Positions 28,099 through 38,700 are shown, numbered from the stretch's first letter. The stretch: 64,000 nt of DNA from Planctomycetota bacterium (GCA_965223545.1 OZ245006.1:704001-768000), one strand, 5' to 3'. Made by a program: numbers and translations. The notes: a model not told the origin generated them from the letters alone.

Positions 28099-30006
28099 TC
28101 AGAACGTCGGCACCGCCGCGCCGGCCACCGCCGGCGGTGGCCCGAGGATCTTGCGCGTCACCCGCTGCTCGACGATGCCGAACACACTCGAGGTGATCAT
28201 GTAGACCATCAGCCCCGAGGCGTAGTTGTAGAGCATGATGCCGAACAGCACCGGCATGTAGCGCATGATCTTCATCATCTGCCGCTGCTGCGGGTCCTCG
28301 GGCAGCGGCGTGCCGGCCTGCAGCACGAGCCACAGCACGACCATCAGCAACGGCAGCAGGTTGAAGTACGGCACCCAGGGCAGACCCAGCGCGAACAGCT
28401 GATCGGGCTGGCTGAGGTCGTCGATCCAACCGAAGAACGGCTGGTAGCGCAGCTCGTAGGCGATGCGCAGCGCGGTGAACAGGCCGAGGAACACCGGGAT
28501 GGTGATGAACATCGGCAGGCAGCCGCCGATCGGCGGGATCAGCTTGTGCTCGCGCTGGAACGCCGCCATCTCCATCTGCAGCTTCTTGGGATCGTCGCCG
28601 TAGCGCTCCTTGATCTTGTCGAGCTTGGGCTTGAGCACCATCATCTTGGCGCCGTAGGCCCGCATGCTCTTCTGCATGCGGAAGTTGAACGGCACCAGGG
28701 CACCGCGCACCAACAGGGTCATCACCACGATGGCGATGCCCCAGTTGCCGAAGAACGAGTGCAGGTGGCGCAACAGCCAGAGCAAGAACTTGGCCATCGC
28801 CCGCGCGCCGGGGATCTCGCAGGGGCACATCGGCGCCAAATCGACGTCCATCACCGCGTCGAAGCGCGCGTAGGCCGGATCCTCGTCGAACACGCCGCTC
28901 GACTTCGGGCCGAGGTAGAGGTCGTACGACACCGTGGTGCGGCCACCCGGCGCGGGCACCGGCAGCTCGAAGCGGTAGACCGGCACCGGCACCGAGCCGA
29001 AGCCGTGGTCGTCGAGCGGCGCGCGCACCGGGTCGGGCCGCGGCCACAGGTCGCGCTCGACGCGGTAGAGCGCGTGCCGGCTCTCCTCGTCGGCGGGCAC
29101 CAAGAACGCGCCGAAGAAGCGGTTGGTGCTGCCGGCGAAGTCGATGCCGCCCGCCGTCGTGCGCTGCGCCACCGGCCCCTCGATCTGGTCGTGCGGCCGC
29201 TGCACGGCGATCGCGACTTCGCCCTCGGGCGCCGCGCTGGCGCCGATCACGAACGCCGGGTTTTGGCCCAAGACGTGGTCGACGCGCGGGTTGGTGACGC
29301 TGAGCCCGCGCATCGCGAGCAGCAGTGAGGCACCGGCCGGCGTGCGCTCCGTCGCGGCGGACGAGCGCTCCGCCGCGGCTTCGACCGACAGCTCCATCGA
29401 CAGCCCGCGCCAGCCCGGCCGGTGGTGGAACGTCTTGCGCAGGGTCAGGCCGTTGTCGGCATCGACGAGCTGCAGGACGACCTCGCCGTCACCACCAGCG
29501 ACGCGATCCCAACGGCTCTGGTAGGGATCCACGGTGAGCCCACTCTGCCGCTGGAACGCGGTCGGCAGCGAGACGAAGCCACCCTGCACCGGCTGCACGA
29601 GCGGATAGAAGTCCTCTTCGACCCGTTGCTCGACCGGCACCTGACTCGCCTCGAGCGTCGCTGGCTCGTCGAGCAGACGGACCTCGACCACCGATGCGGC
29701 GCGCCGGTCGAACACGACCCGCAGCGCACCCCGCTCGCCCGGTACCCCGAAGTCGTGCGAGAACCGGTTGTCGCCCGCCTGCCCCTCGACGACGGTCGCC
29801 GGCGACAGTGCCCGTCCGCCATTGGCCGGCGCGCCGCCTTCCTGCACCTCGCCGCCACCCGCGGGCGCAGCCTCGCCGGCGCTACTGGCAACGGCTTCGC
29901 CGGCGGGTCCCACCGGCTTGGCGGTCTCGGGCTCCCGCTGAAACAAGAACAGCAGGGGCACGAGGATGAGGAACGGGATCAGAAAGGCAGTCAGTCGACG
30001 TTCCAT
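28099..30006 (-). CDS. yidC: Membrane protein insertase YidC
   Basis: N-terminal TM, large periplasmic domain, GNWGIAI, GGCLP, WIDDLS.PD, YNYASGL.VY. Confidence 0.95.
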   Translation of the reverse strand: MERRLTAFLIPFLILVPLLFLFQREPETAKPVGPAGEAVASSAGEAAPAGGGEVQEGGAPANGGRALSPATVVEGQAGDNRFSHDFGVPGERGALRVVFDRRAASVVEVRLLDEPATLEASQVPVEQRVEEDFYPLVQPVQGGFVSLPTAFQRQSGLTVDPYQSRWDRVAGGDGEVVLQLVDADNGLTLRKTFHHRPGWRGLSMELSVEAAAERSSAATERTPAGASLLLAMRGLSVTNPRVDHVLGQNPAFVIGASAAPEGEVAIAVQRPHDQIEGPVAQRTTAGGIDFAGSTNRFFGAFLVPADEESRHALYRVERDLWPRPDPVRAPLDDHGFGSVPVPVYRFELPVPAPGGRTTVSYDLYLGPKSSGVFDEDPAYARFDAVMDVDLAPMCPCEIPGARAMAKFLLWLLRHLHSFFGNWGIAIVVMTLLVRGALVPFNFRMQKSMRAYGAKMMVLKPKLDKIKERYGDDPKKLQMEMAAFQREHKLIPPIGGCLPMFITIPVFLGLFTALRIAYELRYQPFFGWIDDLSQPDQLFALGLPWVPYFNLLPLLMVVLWLVLQAGTPLPEDPQQRQMMKIMRYMPVLFGIMLYNYASGLMVYMITSSVFGIVEQRVTRKILGPPPAVAGAAVPTF

Positions 30007-30045
30007 GGGGCTTGGCGGGCTCCGTTGGGCGCTTCGGTCGCGGCG

Positions 30046-30807
30046 TCAGCGCCCCTGCGCCAATCGGTCGGCGAGATAGTCGGGCAGCGCGGGGATGGCG
30101 CGAATCTTCTCCATGGTGCGCTCGTGGTCGTACGCGACCCGATGGAACTGCACCGCCTCGCCGTCATAGGTGGCGAACGACGCCCGCGGGTCGCCGTCGC
30201 GCGGCTGTCCAACCGAGCCCACGTTGACGATGGCGGCCTCCTCCGCGCGCGTGTAACGGCCACCGAGCTCGTCCGGCCGCTGGTAGCTGCCGTTCTCGGG
30301 GTAGACGCCGGGCACGTGCGAGTGGCCGACGAAGCACAGACGCGCTTCGCCCATCTTGGCAAACCGCGGCCCCATCACCTGCGGGTCGGCGGCGTCCTTG
30401 GGCACGACGTAGTCGCGCACCGGATCGACCGGCGAACCGTGCACGAACAGCACGTCGTCCTCGACCCGCCGCTCCTGCATCTCACCCAGATAGTTCCACA
30501 GCTTCATGTTCTGCGCGCGGGCCCCGTCGACGTCGCGGCGGTTGAGCTCATCGCGCGTCCAGTCGATGGCGGCGCGGGCCTTGGGATTGAAATCCGAGGC
30601 GTAGAACATCGCCCCGTGCTCGTGGTTGCCCAGCAGCGAGAACTCCGCCACGTCGATGATCTGCAGCAGCGTCGCGCGCGGCTCAGGCCCGTAGCCGATC
30701 ACGTCGCCCAGACAGACGATGCGGTCGCAACCGAGGCGGTCGATCTCCGCCAAGCAGGCCTCCAAGGCCTCGGTATTGCTGTGGATGTCCGAGATCAGGG
30801 CGATCAT
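30046..30807 (-). CDS. Calcineurin-like metallophosphoesterase
   Basis: SDIHSN, LGDVIGYGP, GNHE, HGSP, GHSH, NVGSVGQPRDG. Confidence 0.93.
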   Translation of the reverse strand: MIALISDIHSNTEALEACLAEIDRLGCDRIVCLGDVIGYGPEPRATLLQIIDVAEFSLLGNHEHGAMFYASDFNPKARAAIDWTRDELNRRDVDGARAQNMKLWNYLGEMQERRVEDDVLFVHGSPVDPVRDYVVPKDAADPQVMGPRFAKMGEARLCFVGHSHVPGVYPENGSYQRPDELGGRYTRAEEAAIVNVGSVGQPRDGDPRASFATYDGEAVQFHRVAYDHERTMEKIRAIPALPDYLADRLAQGR

Positions 30808-30883
30808 GGTGGAAGCCCGTCAAGGTAGCCCTCGCCCTGAGCACGCGGAAGCGACATCATCTGCGCCTGGGGCATTTTTCGCG

Positions 30884-31819
30884 ATGACCGATCCGGAGCC
30901 CGTTTGGGTGCTGACCGGCGCCACCGCAGCGGGCAAGTCCGGGCTGGCGCTGGAGCTCGCGCGGCAGCGCGAGGTCGAGATCCTGTCGATGGATTCGATG
31001 GCCGTGTACCGCGGCATGGACGTCGGCACCGCCAAGCCCAGCGCGGAGGAACGGGCGCGCGTGCCCCACCATCTGCTCGACTTGGTCGAGCCGCACGAGG
31101 AGTTCGACACCAGCCTCTACTGCGAACACGCCGAACGCGCCCTGACGGCGGTGCGCGCGCGGGGCAAACAGCCGCTGTTCGTCGGCGGCACGCCGCTGTA
31201 CCTGATGGCGTTCTTCAAGGGTCTGATGCCCGGCCCGCCGGCGCAACCCGCGCTCCGCGCCGCGCTCGAGGCGCGGGAGGAGGAAGAGCCCGGTTGGCTG
31301 CACGCCGAGCTCTCCAGGGTCGATCCCGAGGCGGCGGCCCGCATCCACCGGCGCGACCGCAAGCGGCTGGTGCGCGCGCTCGAGGTCGTGCGCGTCACCG
31401 GCCAGCCGATTTCGGCGCAGCAGACCTCGTTCTCCCGCCCCGGCTGGCGGCTGCCCTGCCGCGTGGTCGCGGTCGACTGGCCGCGCGAAGCCCTGCACGA
31501 CCGCATTCGGACGCGGACCCGGGCGATGTTGGCCGCCGGTCTGCTCGACGAGACCAAGGCGATCCTCGACCGCGGCGGCTTCTCCAAGCAGGCGGCGGCG
31601 GCGATCGGCTACGCCGAGTGCCTGCAGCTCTTGGCCGGTGCGCTGCGCGACGAGGCCGAGCTGCGCAACCGCATCCGGCGGGCCACCCACCGCCTGGTGC
31701 GCCGGCAGACCACTTGGCTGCGGCATCTCGCCGAAGTGCGGCACGTGTCCAGCGACGCCGGCGCCGGCGCGGTGCTGGCCGCGCTGACCGATCCGGCCTC
31801 CGACTCCGCGCAAGGTTGA
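30884..31819 (+). CDS. miaA: tRNA dimethylallyltransferase
   Basis: G.TAAGKS, DSM.VYRGMD.GTAKP, VGGT.LY, RALEV, RRQ.TW. Confidence 0.95.
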   Translation: MTDPEPVWVLTGATAAGKSGLALELARQREVEILSMDSMAVYRGMDVGTAKPSAEERARVPHHLLDLVEPHEEFDTSLYCEHAERALTAVRARGKQPLFVGGTPLYLMAFFKGLMPGPPAQPALRAALEAREEEEPGWLHAELSRVDPEAAARIHRRDRKRLVRALEVVRVTGQPISAQQTSFSRPGWRLPCRVVAVDWPREALHDRIRTRTRAMLAAGLLDETKAILDRGGFSKQAAAAIGYAECLQLLAGALRDEAELRNRIRRATHRLVRRQTTWLRHLAEVRHVSSDAGAGAVLAALTDPASDSAQG

Positions 31820-31900
31820 TCGCGGCGCGCGCGGGCGCCAAAGTGGCGCCCCCCGGGGAGGCGATCCGCGCTCCCCGCGCCGCGAGAACACCCACGCCGC

Positions 31901-34447
31901 ATGATCAAGCGCAAGCTGCCGGTTCTGCTCCCAGCCCTCGCCCTCCTCGCCCTGGCGCCGGCGGCGCGCGCCCAAGAGGAGGTCAGCGGGCCACCGCAGC
32001 GGCGCGCTCTGCAGGACCCCGATCTGCAGGCGCAGATCAACGACGTCTTCGGCGTGCTGCTGCAGTACGCGGCGGCGATCCCGTTCAAGAACGTCGCCGG
32101 CTGGCTCGGTCTCGATACGCCGCAGCGGCTGGTCGACGCGACCGGCCAGCCGCGCTACCAGCGCGTGCTGATGCGCGGCCACGAGGGACCGGTGCACACA
32201 GCCATGCTGTCGCCCGACGGCGCGCGCCTGCTGACGCTGGGCGACGACCGCACCGCCCGCTTGTGGAACGTGCGCCCGCGCGACGTGCACGCCCCCGACG
32301 ACACCCGCGAGGGCGTGCAGCTGCTGGAGATCGGCGCCGACGCCGCACTGACCGCAGCGGCGTTCTTCCCCGACGGGGAGGAGATCACGCTCGGCAGCGC
32401 CGATGGCACGGCGCGCGTGTTCGCGCTGAAGAGCACCGCCAATGGCTCCGCCGTCGAAGCCACCGAGGTCCTGCGGCTCGACGGCCACGAGGGCGCGGTC
32501 CGCCACGTCGCCTACTCCCCCGACGGCACCACCCTGCTGACCATCGACGCGGGCGGCCGAGCCCGCCGCTTCGACCGCGCTGGCGCGCTGATCGGGGAGC
32601 CGGTGGCACTCACCGGTCACAGTGGCGACATCGTGCGCGTGCAGTGCGCCAACGACGGCATGCTGCTGACCGCCGCCGAGGGTGATGCCAACGCGCGGCT
32701 GTGGAACTCCAGCTGGACCCCGGGCGCCGTGCTCGAGCTGGCCGATGCGGCCGCAGCCGCGGAGGCCGAGTTCGTCGACCGCGACGGTGCCACCGTCGTG
32801 CGCACACCGGCGGCCGACAACCAGATCACCTACTTCGACACCAACGGCACGCCGCTGACGACCGAGGCCAGTGATCCGCCGGCTTTCACCGCCACGCTCG
32901 AGGGCAACGACATCGCCCTGCAGGGCGCCGACGGCCAGGCGCTGACCCTCAGCGGCCACGACGCACCGATCACCCAGATGTTCTTCGGCGCGGATCACAC
33001 GCGCCTGATCAGTGCCTCGGCGGACGGCTCGGCGACGGTGTGGGAGTGGCTGGTGCGCGACCCGACTGGAGCGCTGGTGATCACCAACGTGCCGCTGGTG
33101 GTGATCTGGCTGGTCGTCGCCGCGATCGTGTTCACGATCTACATGCGGTTCGTCAACGTGCGCCTCTTCGGCCACGCGATCGCGGTGGTGCGCGGCAAGT
33201 ACGACGACCCCGACGACGAGGGCGAGGTCAGCCACTTCCAGGCGCTGTCCTCGGCGCTGTCGGGCACGGTCGGACTCGGAAATATCGCAGGGGTGGCGAT
33301 CGCCATCATGGTCGGCGGCCCGGGCGCCACCGTGTGGATGATCGTCGCCGGCTTGCTCGGCATGACCCTCAAGTTCACCGAGTGCACGCTGGGTCAGCGC
33401 TACCGCAAGGTCGACGAGGACGGCCACGTCTCCGGCGGCCCGATGCACTACCTGAAGGAGGGCCTCGACAAGCGCGGCCTGGGCTTCATCGGCGCGCCGC
33501 TGGCGGTGATCTTCACGCTGTTCTGCATCGGCGGCAGCCTCGCCGGTGGCAACAGCTTCCAAGTGAACCAGTCGCTGACGATCCTGGCCGAGCGCGTTCC
33601 CTACTTCAAGGACAACGGCTGGGTCTACGGCGCGATCATGGCCGTGTTCGTCGGCATCGTGATCATCGGCGGGATCAGGCGCATCGCGCAGACCGCCGAG
33701 CGCATCGTGCCGACGATGTGCGGCCTCTACCTGGTCGCCAGCCTGACGATCATCGTCTTCAACATCGAGCACGTGCCGGGCGCGTTCGCCGCCATCTTCG
33801 GCGGCGCGTTCACCGGCGAGGCGATGTACGGCGGCGCCCTAGGCGCGCTGATCATGGGCTTTCGGCGGGCGGCGTTCTCCAACGAGGCCGGCGTCGGATC
33901 GGCGTCGATCGCGCACTCCGCCGCGCGCACGCCGTATCCCGTGCGCGAGGGCATCGTCGCCCTGCTGGAGCCGTTCATCGACACGGTCGTGGTGTGCACG
34001 ATGACCGCGCTGGTGATCAACATCACCGAGGTGCACAAAATGCCGGAGCACGCCCACCTGGTGGCATCCACGCAGGGCGCGGCGCTGACGTCGGAGGCGT
34101 TCCAGACGGTCTCGTTCTTGGCCGGCTGGTTCCCCTGGGTGCTGATGGGCGCGGTGATCCTGTTCGCCTTCTCGACCATGATCACCTGGTCCTACTACGG
34201 CGAGCGCTGCTGGACGCACCTGTTCGGCACGCGATCGTCGATGGCCTACAAGCTGCTGTTCCTGCTGTTCGTCGTGCTCGGCTCGGTGATCCAGGCGACC
34301 AACATCCTCGAGTTCGGCGATCTGATGATCCTGCTGATGGCGTTCCCCAACATCGCCGGCCTGTACTTCCTGGGCTCGGAGGTGAAGGGTGAGCTGCGCG
34401 AGTACGAGGCCAAGCTGCACGGCAACCAGTTGAAGACCTACAAGTAG
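31901..34447 (+). CDS. Alanine/glycine:cation symporter (AGCS) with inserted WD40 domain
   Basis: GEVSHFQAL, TVGLGNIAGVA, GGPGA..WM, GGPM.Y, FSNEAG.GS, EPFIDT, WSYYG; GH..WD repeats at 32171-33049. Confidence 0.9.
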   Translation: MIKRKLPVLLPALALLALAPAARAQEEVSGPPQRRALQDPDLQAQINDVFGVLLQYAAAIPFKNVAGWLGLDTPQRLVDATGQPRYQRVLMRGHEGPVHTAMLSPDGARLLTLGDDRTARLWNVRPRDVHAPDDTREGVQLLEIGADAALTAAAFFPDGEEITLGSADGTARVFALKSTANGSAVEATEVLRLDGHEGAVRHVAYSPDGTTLLTIDAGGRARRFDRAGALIGEPVALTGHSGDIVRVQCANDGMLLTAAEGDANARLWNSSWTPGAVLELADAAAAAEAEFVDRDGATVVRTPAADNQITYFDTNGTPLTTEASDPPAFTATLEGNDIALQGADGQALTLSGHDAPITQMFFGADHTRLISASADGSATVWEWLVRDPTGALVITNVPLVVIWLVVAAIVFTIYMRFVNVRLFGHAIAVVRGKYDDPDDEGEVSHFQALSSALSGTVGLGNIAGVAIAIMVGGPGATVWMIVAGLLGMTLKFTECTLGQRYRKVDEDGHVSGGPMHYLKEGLDKRGLGFIGAPLAVIFTLFCIGGSLAGGNSFQVNQSLTILAERVPYFKDNGWVYGAIMAVFVGIVIIGGIRRIAQTAERIVPTMCGLYLVASLTIIVFNIEHVPGAFAAIFGGAFTGEAMYGGALGALIMGFRRAAFSNEAGVGSASIAHSAARTPYPVREGIVALLEPFIDTVVVCTMTALVINITEVHKMPEHAHLVASTQGAALTSEAFQTVSFLAGWFPWVLMGAVILFAFSTMITWSYYGERCWTHLFGTRSSMAYKLLFLLFVVLGSVIQATNILEFGDLMILLMAFPNIAGLYFLGSEVKGELREYEAKLHGNQLKTYK

Positions 34448-34484
34448 GTGCGGGCGCGGCCAGCGCTCGAGAAGCAAGAACGCC

Positions 34485-36221
34485 ATGAGCGGATCGCGGT
34501 TTCCCCATTCCCTCGCCCTGATCATGGCGATGATCGTGGCCGCGCAGCTGCTCGGCTACGTCTTGCCGGCTGGGCGCTATGCGGTCGACGTCGAGACGGA
34601 GGAAGTCAAAGAGGACGCCCGCACGCTGACGCTGCCGGCGGGCTCGAAAGCTCTGGTGCCGGACGAGCTGGTCCTGCTCCTGCCCGGCGGAGGCTCGATC
34701 GACCTGCCGGGCGGCCTGTCGGTCGCGTGCGGGGACGCGCCGCCGATCACACTGCCCGAGCAACGCACGCTGCAGGCCGATGGCCTGCGCTACGAGGCGA
34801 CGGTCGAGGAGCTGAAGATCGGCGGCGAGACCTACCAGCTACCGAGAGACGGGGTGCTGCGCTTGCCCCAGGCCGTGGTGCGGCCGCGTGGCAGCTCGCA
34901 GCTGCTGGTGTTTCAGGGCGAGGCCATCGAGCTGCCCGAGGGCACGCAACGCGTCACGCCCAGCAGAAAGATCAAGCCGGGCACCTACGCGCAGGTCGAC
35001 GCCGATCCCTTGCCGTGGCACGCGTCCCTGTCGCGCGTGTCCACCGGCCTGGAGGCCGCGGCGGACATCATCTTCTTCGTGTTTCTGGTCGGCGGGGTCA
35101 TCGCCGTGCTGCGCGCCACCGGCGCGATCGACGCCCTGATCGCGCTCGCCATCCGTGCGCTCGGCGGCAACCCCCTGCTGCTGGTCGGCGGCATGATGAC
35201 CGTGTTCGCAGTCGGCTCGTCGACGATCGGCATGGCCGAGGAGTACATGCCGTTCATCCCGGTCCTCGTCGCGATGTGCCTCGCGCTCAAGCTGGACGCG
35301 ATGGTGGCGCTCGGCATCGTCTACGTCGGTGCCGGCGTCGGCTACGGTTGTGCCGCGATCAATCCGTTCACCGTCGCGATCGCCAAGGACATCGCAGGCG
35401 AACCCCTCCTGCAAGGTGCTGGCGCGCGCTGGGCACTGTTGGCGGTGTTACTCGCCGTCGGCACCCACCACGTGCTGCGCTACGCGCGGCGCGTGGCCGC
35501 GGATCCCAGCCGCAGCCTGGTCGGCGACGTCGACTACTCGAGCGGCTACGACATGCCAGAGGACACCGCGATGACCGGCCGGCGCGTCGCGATCCTGACG
35601 GTGTTCGCCGCCGGCATCGCGCTGTTCGTCTACGGCGTCAGCGAGTGGGAGTGGTTCCTGAAGGAGCTGGCGACCGTGTTTCTCGCCACCGGCCTCCTCG
35701 CCGCAGTGATCGGCCGCCTGTCCCCCAACAAGGTGTGCGAGCGCTTCTGCAGCGGAGCCGCCGAACTCACCACCACCGCCCTACTGATCGGCTTCGCGCG
35801 CACGATCCAGGTGATCTTCGACGAAGCAGCCGTGACCCACACCATCATCGACGGCATCGCCGCCGGCCTCGACCAGCTCGGTCCGCAGCTGGCCGCTCTC
35901 GGCATGCTCGTGGTGCAGAGCGTGTGCAATCTGCTGATCCCCTCGGGCAGCGGCCAGGCCTACGTCACCATGCCGATCATGGCGCCGATCGCCGACCTCA
36001 CCGGCGTCGGCCGCGAGACCGCGGTGTTCGCGTACCAGTTCGGCGACGGCTTCACCAACATGATCGTGCCGACCAACGCCCTGCTGATGGGCATGCTGGG
36101 CCTCGGCAAGGTGCCCTACCAGCGCTGGCTGCGGTTCATCCTGCCCCTGATGCTCAAGATCTACATCGTCGCGGCGGTGTTCTTGTGGTTCTCGGTCGAC
36201 TGGTTCGCGGCGCCCCAGTGA
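34485..36221 (+). CDS. YfcC/DcuC-family transporter with large loop insertion
   Basis: FPHS, LPAG.Y, GMAEE, INPFT, IPSGSGQA...MPIMAP..DL, AYQFGDG. Confidence 0.88.
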   Translation: MSGSRFPHSLALIMAMIVAAQLLGYVLPAGRYAVDVETEEVKEDARTLTLPAGSKALVPDELVLLLPGGGSIDLPGGLSVACGDAPPITLPEQRTLQADGLRYEATVEELKIGGETYQLPRDGVLRLPQAVVRPRGSSQLLVFQGEAIELPEGTQRVTPSRKIKPGTYAQVDADPLPWHASLSRVSTGLEAAADIIFFVFLVGGVIAVLRATGAIDALIALAIRALGGNPLLLVGGMMTVFAVGSSTIGMAEEYMPFIPVLVAMCLALKLDAMVALGIVYVGAGVGYGCAAINPFTVAIAKDIAGEPLLQGAGARWALLAVLLAVGTHHVLRYARRVAADPSRSLVGDVDYSSGYDMPEDTAMTGRRVAILTVFAAGIALFVYGVSEWEWFLKELATVFLATGLLAAVIGRLSPNKVCERFCSGAAELTTTALLIGFARTIQVIFDEAAVTHTIIDGIAAGLDQLGPQLAALGMLVVQSVCNLLIPSGSGQAYVTMPIMAPIADLTGVGRETAVFAYQFGDGFTNMIVPTNALLMGMLGLGKVPYQRWLRFILPLMLKIYIVAAVFLWFSVDWFAAPQ

Positions 36222-36874
36222 GCGCGTCGCGGGCCGAGCAGCTGCGGCGCCGCGCGGAGGCGCTGCGCGCTCCCCTGTCCGCCACCGCCGCGGATCTGCT
36301 GGTCCGCTACGTCGACGCGATGCTCGCTCTCAACCGCACGGTCAACCTGACCGCGATCCGCGACCCCGACGCCGCCGACGTGCTGCACGCCCTCGACGCG
36401 GCTGCGTGCGGTGCGCTGGCGCTGCGGCCAGCCCGCGTCCTCGATCTCGGCAGCGGCAACGGCTTTCCCGGCGTCGCCGTCGCGGCGCTCCACCCCGGTG
36501 CAGAGGTCACTCTGCTGGAGCGGACACAGAAGAAGGCGCGCGCACTCGAAGCGCTGACCGCGACCGTCGGCCTCGCCAACACCCGCGTGCTCGCCCTCGA
36601 CGCCGCCCAGGCACCAACCCTGCTGCCCGCGCTGCGCACGGCATTCGACGTGATCACCGCGCGCGCGGTGGCGGCGCCGGCGCAGGTCGCCAAGCTCGCC
36701 CAACCCCTGCTGACACGCGATGGCCAGCTGGTGCTGTGGCTCGACGCCGACGCCAGCGTGGCAGAACTCCGCGGCTGGCGCGTCCGCGAGCAGCGCTACC
36801 GGCTGCCCGAACCGTGTGCGCGCACGCGCCGATTGGCGGTGCTGCGCCCCTCGCTCAGCGGGCGAGGAAGGTGA
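36218..36874 (+). CDS. rsmG: 16S rRNA m7G527 methyltransferase
   Basis: NLTAI, H.LD, DLGSG.GFPG, TARAV; GTGA overlap with the upstream stop. Confidence 0.9.
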   Translation: MSASRAEQLRRRAEALRAPLSATAADLLVRYVDAMLALNRTVNLTAIRDPDAADVLHALDAAACGALALRPARVLDLGSGNGFPGVAVAALHPGAEVTLLERTQKKARALEALTATVGLANTRVLALDAAQAPTLLPALRTAFDVITARAVAAPAQVAKLAQPLLTRDGQLVLWLDADASVAELRGWRVREQRYRLPEPCARTRRLAVLRPSLSGRGR

Positions 36875-37199
36875 TGCCGAACTTGCCGGTGTGCTCGATC
36901 AGGTTCGAGTCGGTGGCGTAGTTGACCGCCGGGTCGAACTCGGAGTAGCCGAACAGGTGCCGGTCCAGGGTGTTCTGGATGTCGGTCAGGCCGTTGCCGA
37001 AGGCGTTGATGCGGCCATCGCGGCGCGCGCGCACGCCGGCCCAGAACTTCTCGGTCTCGTAGTTGCGGACCAAGGCATCGATGTCCTTGATGCCGCGCGC
37101 CTGCTGGTCGCCGGTGAGGCCAGCGCCCTGACCCTGCCAGGTGAACGTGCTGCACGAGGCCATCAGGGCGAGCGGAAGGAGGAAGGCGAGTTTGCGCAT
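36855..37199 (-). CDS. Small hypothetical lipoprotein
   Basis: MRKLAFLLPLALMASC lipobox; typical codon bias. Confidence 0.7.
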   Translation of the reverse strand: MRKLAFLLPLALMASCSTFTWQGQGAGLTGDQQARGIKDIDALVRNYETEKFWAGVRARRDGRINAFGNGLTDIQNTLDRHLFGYSEFDPAVNYATDSNLIEHTGKFGITFLAR

Positions 37200-37410
37200 G
37201 CTGCTTTCTCGAACTCGAGTTGGGACGGGCGGTCGCGGCGGCCCGGCCGTCGTCCGACGGCCAAACCTTGGGCTGGGAGCCGAACGGGGCAAGTCCGGCG
37301 CCGAACCGCGCCAAGCGGTGGCGGAAGTTAGCTGTGCCCCACCCCGGAGGCAAGCGTTTTGACCGCCTCTTTGCAGCCGCGAGAGCCGCGCGGTACGTTC
37401 CGACGTCACC

Positions 37411-38700
37411 ATGAGCCGAAGGCCAGCCCCACGCGGCACCGAGGACCTGCTGCCGGAGCGTATCCCCTTCTACGAACACGTCTTCGGCTCTTGCCGTCAA
37501 GTGCTCGAGCGGGCCGCGTACCGCGAGATCCGCACCCCGCTGTTCGAGGACACCAGTCTGTTCGTGCGCTCGTTGGGCGAAGACACCGACGTCGTCGCCA
37601 AGGAGATGTTCACCGCGACCCGCGGCGACACCAGCGTGACGTTTCGGCCGGAGGGAACCGCCTCGGTGGTGCGCGCCTACCTGTCGCACAACCTCGACAA
37701 GACCCGCGCCTTCCAGAAGCTCTACTACATGGGGCCGATGTTCCGCTTCGAGCGGCCGCAGGCCGGCCGGCAGCGGCAGTTCTACCAGATCGGGATCGAG
37801 GCGCTGGGCGCCGCCGATCCACGCCTCGATGCCGAGGTCGCCGCCCTGGCGATGGACTGCTTCGCCGCGATCGGCGTCGCCAACGTCCACCTGCACTTGA
37901 ACAGCATCGGCGACAAAGAGGATCGGCAGGTCTACCGCGAGGTGCTGCGAGCCTTCTTCGAGCCGATCCTGGCGGAGCGCTGCGACGACTGCCGCAGCCG
38001 GTTTGCGCGCAACGTCTTCCGCATGCTCGACTGCAAGCAGCCGCAGTGCCAGGCGAGCAACGCCGCCGCCCCCCACGTGCTCGACCACCTGACGCCGAAG
38101 AGCGCGGAGCGGTTCGCGACGACGCGCGGCGCCCTCGAGGACTTGGGCGTGCCGTATCGGATCGACCACGGCATCGTCCGCGGCCTCGACTACTACACCC
38201 ATACGGTCTTCGAAGTGCGCTGCCCCGATCTGGGTGCGCGCGACGCGATCTGCGGCGGCGGCCGCTACGACCACCTGATCGGTGACCTCGGCGGCCCGGA
38301 CCTCGGCGCGGTCGGCTTCGCCATCGGCGTCACCCCGACCCTGCTCGCCCTCGAGCTGCAGGGGCACGGTGCTGCGGCGGAAGCTCCCGCGGCGCTCTCG
38401 ATCTTCGTCGCCCCGGTGAAGGACGCGCAGCGCGGCGCCGCGTTCGCGCTGGTGCACCGCCTGCGCGCGGCCGGTCTGCAAGCCGACACCGACTACGAGG
38501 GCAAGAGCCTCAAGGCCATGTTCAAGGCGGCCAACAAGCGCGGCGCCAAGCTTCTCCTGGTGCTCGGTGAAGACGAGGTCGCCAACGGCCAGGTACAGGT
38601 CAAGGACTTCGGCAGTGGCGACGAGCAGCGGCTGCCGGCGGGCGATGGTCTCGCGGCCGCGTTGGCCGAGCGGTTGGCGGCGGCAGCGGCGGACGGCTGA
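37411..38700 (+). CDS. hisS: Histidine--tRNA ligase
   Basis: RGT.D, RPEGTA, FR.ERPQAGR.RQF, RGLDYY, GGGRYD. Confidence 0.97.
   Translation: MSRRPAPRGTEDLLPERIPFYEHVFGSCRQVLERAAYREIRTPLFEDTSLFVRSLGEDTDVVAKEMFTATRGDTSVTFRPEGTASVVRAYLSHNLDKTRAFQKLYYMGPMFRFERPQAGRQRQFYQIGIEALGAADPRLDAEVAALAMDCFAAIGVANVHLHLNSIGDKEDRQVYREVLRAFFEPILAERCDDCRSRFARNVFRMLDCKQPQCQASNAAAPHVLDHLTPKSAERFATTRGALEDLGVPYRIDHGIVRGLDYYTHTVFEVRCPDLGARDAICGGGRYDHLIGDLGGPDLGAVGFAIGVTPTLLALELQGHGAAAEAPAALSIFVAPVKDAQRGAAFALVHRLRAAGLQADTDYEGKSLKAMFKAANKRGAKLLLVLGEDEVANGQVQVKDFGSGDEQRLPAGDGLAAALAERLAAAAADG

What the first reader, a model, noticed from the sequence alone, without database searches (positions are those of the whole stretch)
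31901..34447. WD40 beta-propeller inserted into an alanine/glycine:cation symporter
Seen: signal peptide, a short AGCS-like N-terminal helix (DLQAQINDVFG...IPF), then about 290 aa with at least five WD-like repeats (e.g. GHEGPVH...ARLWN, GHEGAVRHVAYSPDG, GHDAPIT...ATVWEW), then an intact AGCS core, all in one uninterrupted frame. Known: AGCS carriers are normally single-domain membrane proteins, and bacterial WD40 domains are mostly cytoplasmic scaffolds. Inference: an exported propeller caps the transporter as a ligand-capture, sensor or partner-docking domain. I do not recognise this architecture as described.
Basis: partly seen in the sequence, partly recalled or inferred. Interest (0 to 1): 0.72.

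Follow-up and report, generated by a model that had tools for sequence, protein, structure and literature searches.

The report
Amino-acid importer carrying a periplasmic propeller
In one family of uncultured planctomycete bacteria, an ordinary-looking sodium-driven amino-acid importer gene carries an extra ring-shaped protein domain, predicted to face the outside of the inner membrane; it is likely an optional docking or shielding add-on, plugged into a spot where related importers have picked up many unrelated domains.

Summary
Real and conserved. The frame 31901-34447 (848 aa) encodes a signal peptide, an amphipathic helix, a WD40 insert (aa 87-383) and a complete AGCS core. Among the 120 best core relatives, 19 (this one included) share the fusion; 7 of 22 orthologue-bearing genomes of the family carry it, and fused and unfused alleles share one locus. 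A confident model (pLDDT 90) matches AgcS (Z 47) and seven-bladed propellers (Z 24). The insert lies before TM1, so it is predicted periplasmic. The propeller drifts fast (32% identity against 76% for the core; 242-347 aa), which argues against a conserved substrate-capture pocket. Sodium and backbone-binding residues are intact; an Ile165-to-Gly change across the subfamily suggests substrates larger than alanine. Best reading: a working importer with an optional docking or shielding module. Five paper searches and three scan look-ups found no description of the fusion.

The parts
31901..34447 (+). Whole gene: WD40-AGCS fusion, 848 aa; the only AGCS match in this genome
   Evidence: tblastn of the core against G000 gives only itself
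31901..31972 (+). Predicted Sec signal peptide, aa 1-24
   Evidence: read from the sequence; A24/Q25 at least 90% conserved in 63 relatives; no predictor run
32000..32005 (+). Arg34-Arg35 motif typical of the fused forms; likely a latch between the N-terminal linker and the propeller (inferred)
   Evidence: R34 invariant in 19 of 19 fused; an RR/RK/KR pair at the matching place in 3 of 69 unfused; aa 31-40 pLDDT 80 against <50 for aa 22-28
32024..32086 (+). Amphipathic N-terminal helix ending in Pro-Phe, aa 42-62, shared with unfused relatives
   Evidence: helix 42-58 in the model; peak 19-residue hydropathy 1.2, too low for a membrane span; present in unfused kin
32087..32158 (+). N-terminal arm of the beta-hairpin stalk, aa 63-86
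   Evidence: same Asp-x-x-Gly hairpin in unfused relatives
32159..33049 (+). WD40 beta-propeller, aa 87-383; five clear repeats plus two degenerate blades
   Evidence: VIA Z 23.6, rmsd 4.2, 273 aligned to WDR5
33050..33091 (+). C-terminal arm of the stalk, aa 384-397
   Evidence: R386 and P388 invariant in fused forms; P388 also near-invariant when unfused kin are added
33092..34447 (+). AGCS transporter core, aa 398-848, starting at TM1
   Evidence: aligns to M. maripaludis AgcS from residue 17; Foldseek TM 0.93; VIA Z 47, rmsd 2.1, 426 aligned
33545..33547 (+). Gly549, in place of the pocket-limiting Ile165 of AgcS
   Evidence: alignment; Gly in 88 of 88 subfamily proteins; I165A widens specificity in 10.1101/293811
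30884..31819 (+). miaA (tRNA isopentenyltransferase), conserved upstream neighbour; context only
   Evidence: PF01715; synteny
34485..36221 (+). YfcC/DcuC-family transporter; context only, not a conserved partner
   Evidence: PF03606; no match in any of 13 relative loci
36218..36874 (+). rsmG/gidB, conserved downstream neighbour; context only
   Evidence: PF02527; synteny

Best explanation
This gene encodes an AGCS-family transporter, likely a working sodium-coupled amino-acid importer, with a WD40 propeller inserted before its first membrane helix; the propeller is predicted to sit in the periplasm and likely acts as an optional docking or shielding module rather than as part of the transport cycle. 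Shown: the fusion, its conservation, the shared locus, the intact sodium and backbone-binding residues, and the fast drift of the propeller. Inferred: after signal-peptide cleavage the N-terminal helix lies on the periplasmic face; a two-stranded stalk between it and TM1 holds the propeller; TM1 lies outside the transport bundle in AgcS, so the site tolerates bulk; a few anchor residues (R34, E161, W383, R386) fix the orientation while the exposed surface varies. The domain was likely taken once, in one family, from the periplasmic WD40 domains that abound in this lineage. The substrate is likely larger than alanine because Ile165 is glycine. The binding partner is unknown.
For: Core intact: T456, G458, N461, Q554, F659, S660, E662, D694, T759 and W763 (AgcS T75, G77, N80, Q170, F273, S274, E276, D308, T366, W370) are kept in 88 of 88 proteins, 19 fused and 69 unfused (residue roles from 10.1101/293811). 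Topology: AgcS has a periplasmic N-terminus and a TM1 outside the bundle; the core aligns from AgcS residue 17; the segment before the insert is not hydrophobic enough to cross. Optional: 15 of 22 family genomes with the orthologue show no propeller match, and 5 fused and 5 unfused family loci share the miaA and rsmG neighbours. Under structural selection: open frame and fold kept across 7 genera, whole-chain pTM 0.86, invariant anchor residues. Not a fixed small-molecule pocket: mean pairwise identity 32% (blades 4-6: 23%) against 76% for the core, length 242-347 aa. Permissive site: 29 of 70 representatives carry >100 aa there, in 22 groups not linked by BLASTP at E 1e-4; a second WD40 insert (P0258) lies in another clade, and grouping it with these is rejected (AU p 0.014). 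Local source of such domains.
Against: No partner gene travels with the fused allele in the loci examined, so docking has no named target. The data do not separate 'docking or shielding' from 'tolerated passenger'. A single origin is not shown: the most careful core tree needs two changes, in 0 of 200 bootstrap trees were the fused rows one side of a branch, and P0001/P0014 fall outside a 98/96-supported group of the other fused proteins plus five unfused ones; one-clade trees were not rejected, though (p 0.52; p 0.21 and 0.26). P0001 and P0014 have Gly at the AgcS Ala74 position, unlike the other 86. Transport was not assayed.
Confidence: 0.5

Rival explanations
1. The propeller is a tolerated passenger: it landed in a permissive loop, is kept only because it must fold so as not to harm the transporter, and does no useful work.
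For: The site takes many unrelated inserts. Unfused orthologues are the majority at the same locus. Non-synonymous divergence in the propeller is 0.54-1.07 against 0.10-0.27 in the core over 21 genome pairs. The core tree allows a secondary loss.
Against: A 240-350 aa exported domain has been kept in frame across 7 genera, where a clean deletion back to the short hairpin is a viable state. Residues outside the repeats, such as R34, are fixed in fused forms only.
Confidence: 0.25
2. The propeller captures substrate (amino acids or peptides released in the periplasm) and hands it to the transporter.
For: Periplasmic position and a confident whole-chain model, pTM 0.86. WD40 propellers bind peptides in eukaryotes (established knowledge, recalled).
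Against: Low and patchy conservation and variable length. The invariant insert positions are few, and most are Gly or the Tyr-Ser-x-x-Gly turn, typical WD40 structural sites (recalled). Pocket residues are the same in fused and unfused forms.
Confidence: 0.12
3. The propeller is a captured receptor ectodomain that makes the protein a regulated transporter or co-receptor: a periplasmic ligand or a Ser/Thr kinase ectodomain binds it and tunes uptake or reads transporter state.
For: The closest WD40 proteins in this genome are kinase-membrane-WD40 receptors and two proteins with leader-like N-termini. Such periplasmic arrays are proposed signal inputs in Planctomycetota (PMC11032199, passages).
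Against: No kinase or regulator gene was seen among the conserved neighbours (which compared only the window's own neighbouring genes). The propeller hangs on TM1, which does not take part in translocation in AgcS. No core position separates all 19 fused from the unfused outside the junction.
Confidence: 0.1
4. Assembly chimera or a cytoplasmic propeller.
For: Among the listed contig pieces only one, possibly from the source sample, spans the 5' junction. No topology predictor was run.
Against: 18 other proteins from several sources have the same junctions. The signal peptide and AgcS topology both place the insert outside.
Confidence: 0.03

Closest known systems
AgcS of Methanococcus maripaludis (PDB 6CSE/6CSF; 10.1101/293811, parts 1 and 2 of 3 read: abstract, introduction, results)
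   Same: Fold (TM-score 0.93 to the target; Z 47), sodium site and backbone-binding residues, N-terminus outside.
   Different: AgcS has no signal peptide, stalk or propeller. Ile165 is Gly, Thr78 is Leu and Gly304 is Glu here, so the pocket is likely larger.
Unfused signal-peptide-bearing AGCS orthologues of the same family (for example P0126, P0128, P0149)
   Same: Signal peptide, amphipathic helix, hairpin stalk, pocket residues and genomic position.
   Different: Only a short or nested hairpin at the tip of the stalk; no propeller; the Arg motif is mostly absent.
Planctomycete Ser/Thr kinase-membrane-WD40 receptors (PMC11032199, passages)
   Same: WD40 arrays predicted in the periplasm, in the same phylum; 14 kinase-motif WD40 ORFs in this genome.
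   Different: Single-pass kinases with C-terminal arrays; here one propeller is nested inside a multi-pass transporter, with no kinase.
P0258, a distant AGCS protein with a WD40 insert at the same site (database protein, not described)
   Same: Same site, WD40 family hits, profile match to the insert (probability 96%).
   Different: Another clade of the core tree; joint origin rejected at p 0.014.
GutA (Cj0903), glutamine-importing AGCS member (PMC12795558, passages)
   Same: Shows that AGCS members can carry amino acids other than Ala and Gly, and that few members are characterised.
   Different: No sequence comparison was made here; no extra domain is mentioned in the passages seen.

Membership tests
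AGCS (TC 2.A.25) | Family profile above the curated cut-off | tested here: met
   TIGR00835 395.5 against 272.65 bits; PF01235 414 against 24 bits
AGCS (TC 2.A.25) | AgcS/LeuT-type membrane fold | tested here: met
   predicted model against 6CSE: TM 0.93, rmsd 2.4; Z 47
AGCS (TC 2.A.25) | Sodium site (T75, N80, S274, D308) and backbone/gate residues (G77, Q170, E276, T366, W370) | tested here: met
   T456, N461, S660, D694, G458, Q554, E662, T759, W763 in 88 of 88
Ala/Gly-specific AgcS (M. maripaludis type) | Small pocket closed by Ile165 and Phe273 | tested here: not met
   F659 kept, but Ile165 is Gly549 in 88 of 88
AGCS (TC 2.A.25) | Cation-coupled amino-acid uptake | not testable with these tools
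   needs an uptake assay
WD40 beta-propeller | WD40 repeats above cut-off | tested here: met
   PF00400 89.9 against 27 bits; five repeats
WD40 beta-propeller | Closed ring of about seven four-stranded blades | tested here: met
   predicted only: aa 74-385 align over 273 of 304 residues of WDR5, Z 23.6, rmsd 4.2; blades 4-6 are irregular and less confident
Substrate-binding accessory domain of a transporter | Conserved ligand pocket and hand-over to the membrane domain | tested here: inconclusive
   overall conservation is low; conservation was not mapped onto the faces of the propeller
Kinase-WD40 receptor of Planctomycetota | Cytoplasmic protein kinase domain | tested here: not met
   no kinase family hit in P0001

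The most novel reading that the evidence does not exclude
A whole subfamily of signal-peptide-bearing AGCS importers has a periplasmic socket before TM1 into which lineages plug exchangeable domains, WD40 propellers at least twice. In this family the plug is a receptor-type propeller, latched by an N-terminal arginine, that lets a periplasmic protein or a Ser/Thr kinase ectodomain regulate or read amino-acid uptake: a bacterial transporter-receptor built from a eukaryote-like scaffold domain.
Probability: 0.12. Interest if true: 0.75.

Novelty: new variant of a known kind. Interest (0 to 1): 0.45.

Why it matters
The AgcS structure paper describes only short loops around the membrane core. Here an AGCS subfamily carries a modular periplasmic site, filled by many unrelated domains and by WD40 propellers in at least two lineages. 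Fused and unfused alleles at one locus, with identical pockets, form a ready natural comparison for asking what a periplasmic add-on does for a secondary transporter, and what bacterial periplasmic WD40 domains bind. The Ile165-to-Gly pocket suggests that the 'alanine/glycine' label is likely wrong for this group. If the propeller proves to be a passenger, the value falls to an example of domain accretion in planctomycetes and a natural fusion site in a LeuT-fold protein.

Tried and rejected
Complex prediction of core (aa 393-848) with propeller (aa 76-392): no answer, score 0.00 in two runs; neither support nor evidence against. Structure prediction of P0239, a suspected third propeller insert: the insert is mostly under pLDDT 50, and profile comparisons of the P0239/P0240/P0246 inserts with WD40 gave probabilities under 4%, so these are not counted as propellers. 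dN/dS between 7 fused genes: synonymous sites look saturated in this high-GC lineage, so no selection test is claimed. The first repeat profile rested on only 18 repeats and was rebuilt. The first 118-row tree did not finish. Sequencing runs: no RNA holder listed. A contig of run X6 (another study) matches 33007-33112 without difference, but its other 50 bases do not match the window, so it is weak. Short joints listed for X1 and X3 have sides of 21-73 bases at relaxed likeness and were read as other organisms' genes. No Rfam match in 29000-38000; no sigma-70-like promoter, and terminator-like sites at chance level. yfcC as a functional partner: rejected, no match in 13 relative loci. Paper searches: none held all terms; two searches listed nothing on this architecture (listings only); PMC5587647 has no occurrence of 'transporter' or 'symporter' in its main text (term search only; supplements not opened, and they may list domain architectures). 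Look-ups of earlier scan findings gave nothing on this architecture.

Full report
Observation. The window holds one open frame at 31901-34447 (+), 848 aa. Its C-terminal 450 residues are an AGCS transporter: TIGR00835 395.5 bits against a cut-off of 272.65, PF01235, aligned to M. maripaludis AgcS from that protein's residue 17. Residues 89-382 hold five WD40 repeats by a profile built from other proteins. The N-terminus reads as a Sec signal peptide; A24 and Q25 are at least 90% conserved in 63 relatives. It is the only AGCS match in the 8.1-Mb, two-contig genome. The nearest named relatives are labelled Planctomycetota.

Is it real? Of the 120 best-scoring relatives of residues 340-848 (8000 candidates scored, 120 listed), 19 including this protein carry both WD40 and PF01235 hits and are 785-900 aa long; their alignment shows the same entry and exit points. 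In the genome's family, 22 of 91 genomes have a match at E 1e-100 or better, and 7 of those, from 7 genera, are fused (judged by score and coverage, five read out and one). In a class-wide sample, 149 of 278 genomes have a match, and the 6 scoring above 1000 bits are all in this family (very divergent propellers could be missed). One contig of run X1 spans the whole gene without difference but may be the source; a contig from another sample spans the 3' junction. A chimera is excluded in practice.

Anatomy. Unfused relatives have the same signal peptide, an acidic linker, an amphipathic helix ending in Pro-Phe, and a hairpin with Asp-x-x-Gly turns that leads into TM1. The propeller sits at the tip of this hairpin. 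AlphaFold2 with 63 sequences gives mean pLDDT 89.8 and pTM 0.86. The core matches AgcS (TM 0.93; Z 47, rmsd 2.1), and residues 74-385 match seven-bladed propellers such as WDR5 (Z 23.6, rmsd 4.2, 273 aligned; many propellers tie). AgcS has its N-terminus in the periplasm and TM1 outside the working bundle (10.1101/293811). The helix before the insert peaks at hydropathy 1.2. Both anchors therefore place the propeller in the periplasm; this is inference, with no topology predictor run.

The transporter. Mapping the AgcS residues through the alignment: T75, G77, N80, Q170, F273, S274, E276, D308, T366 and W370 are kept in 88 of 88 proteins (19 fused, 69 close unfused). Ile165 is Gly in 88 of 88, Thr78 is Leu in 88 of 88, and Gly304 is Glu in 87 of 88. 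I165A lets AgcS carry valine and leucine, and another AGCS member carries glutamine (PMC12795558, passages), so the substrate is likely not limited to Ala and Gly. This holds for the subfamily, not only for the fusion. This protein and P0014 alone have Gly at the Ala74 position.

The propeller. Mean pairwise identity among the 19 fused proteins is 76% in the core, 32% in the propeller and 23% in blades 4-6; insert length runs from 242 to 347 aa. Invariant positions outside the core are few: R34 before the helix, and E161, G169, Y205, S206, G209, G219, G376, W383, R386 and P388. A basic pair at the R34 position occurs in 3 of 69 unfused proteins, and residues 31-40 are ordered in the model (pLDDT 80) while 22-28 are not, which suggests a latch. 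Conservation by propeller face was not computed, and contacts could not be read from the model.

Context. Five fused and five unfused family loci share miaA upstream and rsmG downstream; three loci from other families share none of the window's neighbours. The insertion thus happened in the resident gene. The yfcC gene next to it here has no match in the 13 loci.

History. Core trees need two changes of state. In the most careful tree, this protein and P0014 fall outside a 98/96-supported group of the other fused proteins plus five unfused ones with long hairpins, and 0 of 200 bootstrap trees put all fused rows on one side (33 of 120 rows used). Constrained trees are not rejected (p 0.52 with 50 rows; p 0.21 for fused only and 0.26 for fused plus the long-hairpin group). 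Shared junctions and R34 favour one gain, perhaps followed by a loss; this is not proven.

A hot-spot. A profile search of 1.84 billion representatives (best 150 listed, so not a random sample) returned many AGCS proteins of 600-920 aa. Of 70 in which the helix could be located, 29 have more than 100 residues between helix and TM1, in 22 groups unlinked by BLASTP at E 1e-4. Of 59 long ones scanned, one (P0258) has WD40 hits, one ankyrin repeats, and most nothing beyond the core. P0258's insert matches this propeller's profile at 96% probability, but its core lies in another clade and joint grouping is rejected (p 0.014; 90 rows, quick tree). WD40 was therefore likely gained at this site at least twice.

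Source of the domain. Periplasmic WD40 arrays are predicted for planctomycete Ser/Thr kinases (PMC11032199, passages). This genome has 18 ORFs with two or more repeats; 14 have a kinase motif, and 13 of these a hydrophobic segment before the repeats. They are the best matches of the insert profile in the genome. A donor was not tested on a tree.

Mechanism. Best supported (0.5): a working sodium/amino-acid importer whose permissive periplasmic stalk carries an optional, firmly anchored but fast-drifting propeller for docking or shielding. Rivals: tolerated passenger (0.25), substrate capture (0.12), signalling co-receptor (0.10), artefact or cytoplasmic position (0.03).

Novelty. Searches for the fusion in the held library gave no paper with all terms and nothing relevant in two wider listings; a survey of prokaryotic WD40 proteins has no mention of transporters in its main text (supplements not opened). 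Most subscription papers are not searched. Both parts are known families and the databases already hold the proteins under a plain AGCS name, so this is a new variant of a known kind. Interest 0.45: real, apparently undescribed and easy to test, but confined to one family, with no partner identified and a fair chance that the propeller does little.

Noticed in passing
window 34485-36221 (+): The neighbouring YfcC/DcuC transporter (578 aa) also seems to have an enlarged first loop; most listed relatives are about 450-570 aa, and most align to only about half of residues 1-260. It sits between agcS and rsmG only in this genome among the loci examined.
   Followed up: partly
P0250, P0257, P0262, P0269, P0272, P0273, P0280, P0309, P0326; P0277: Further insertion sites inside the AGCS core of distant relatives: one about 175 residues into the core, and in P0277 a roughly 200-aa insert about 300 residues in.
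   Followed up: no
P0358; P0141; P0281: Domains added before the amphipathic helix instead of after it: ankyrin repeats (P0358), an unnamed beta-rich-looking stretch (P0141), and a long acidic helical repeat (P0281).
   Followed up: no
P0239, P0240, P0246: A separate clade with inserts of up to 410 aa at the same site that look like degenerate propellers by eye; not confirmed by profile or model.
   Followed up: partly
P0260, P0268, P0274, P0297, P0353, P0361: A recurring unnamed insert family of 150-230 aa at the same site, with no fitting Pfam name in the four scanned.
   Followed up: no
L033:9589-13093, L034:9331-12778, L035:9833-11290: In three fused loci extra genes lie between miaA and agcS: a flippase-like membrane protein in all three and an asparagine-synthase-like gene in two (names recalled from the look of the sequences, no family scan).
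   Followed up: no
window 28099-30006 (-): YidC of 635 aa whose long periplasmic part barely matches the YidC periplasmic family (E 0.02).
   Followed up: no
window 36855-37331 (-): Small ORF with a lipoprotein-like leader and no Pfam match, conserved near rsmG and hisS in 9 of 10 family loci.
   Followed up: no
G229:C30:7696-9081, G232:C8:122214-123587, G235:C4:330702-332087, G238:C7:175254-176639: AGCS matches in four genomes of one genus of another family each contain one in-frame TGA; recoding, a shorter C-terminus or decay was not examined.
   Followed up: no
G000 C1:585923 (-) and C1:1368923 (+): Two kinase-less WD40 proteins with leader-like N-terminal stretches are among the closest matches of the insert in this genome.
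   Followed up: partly
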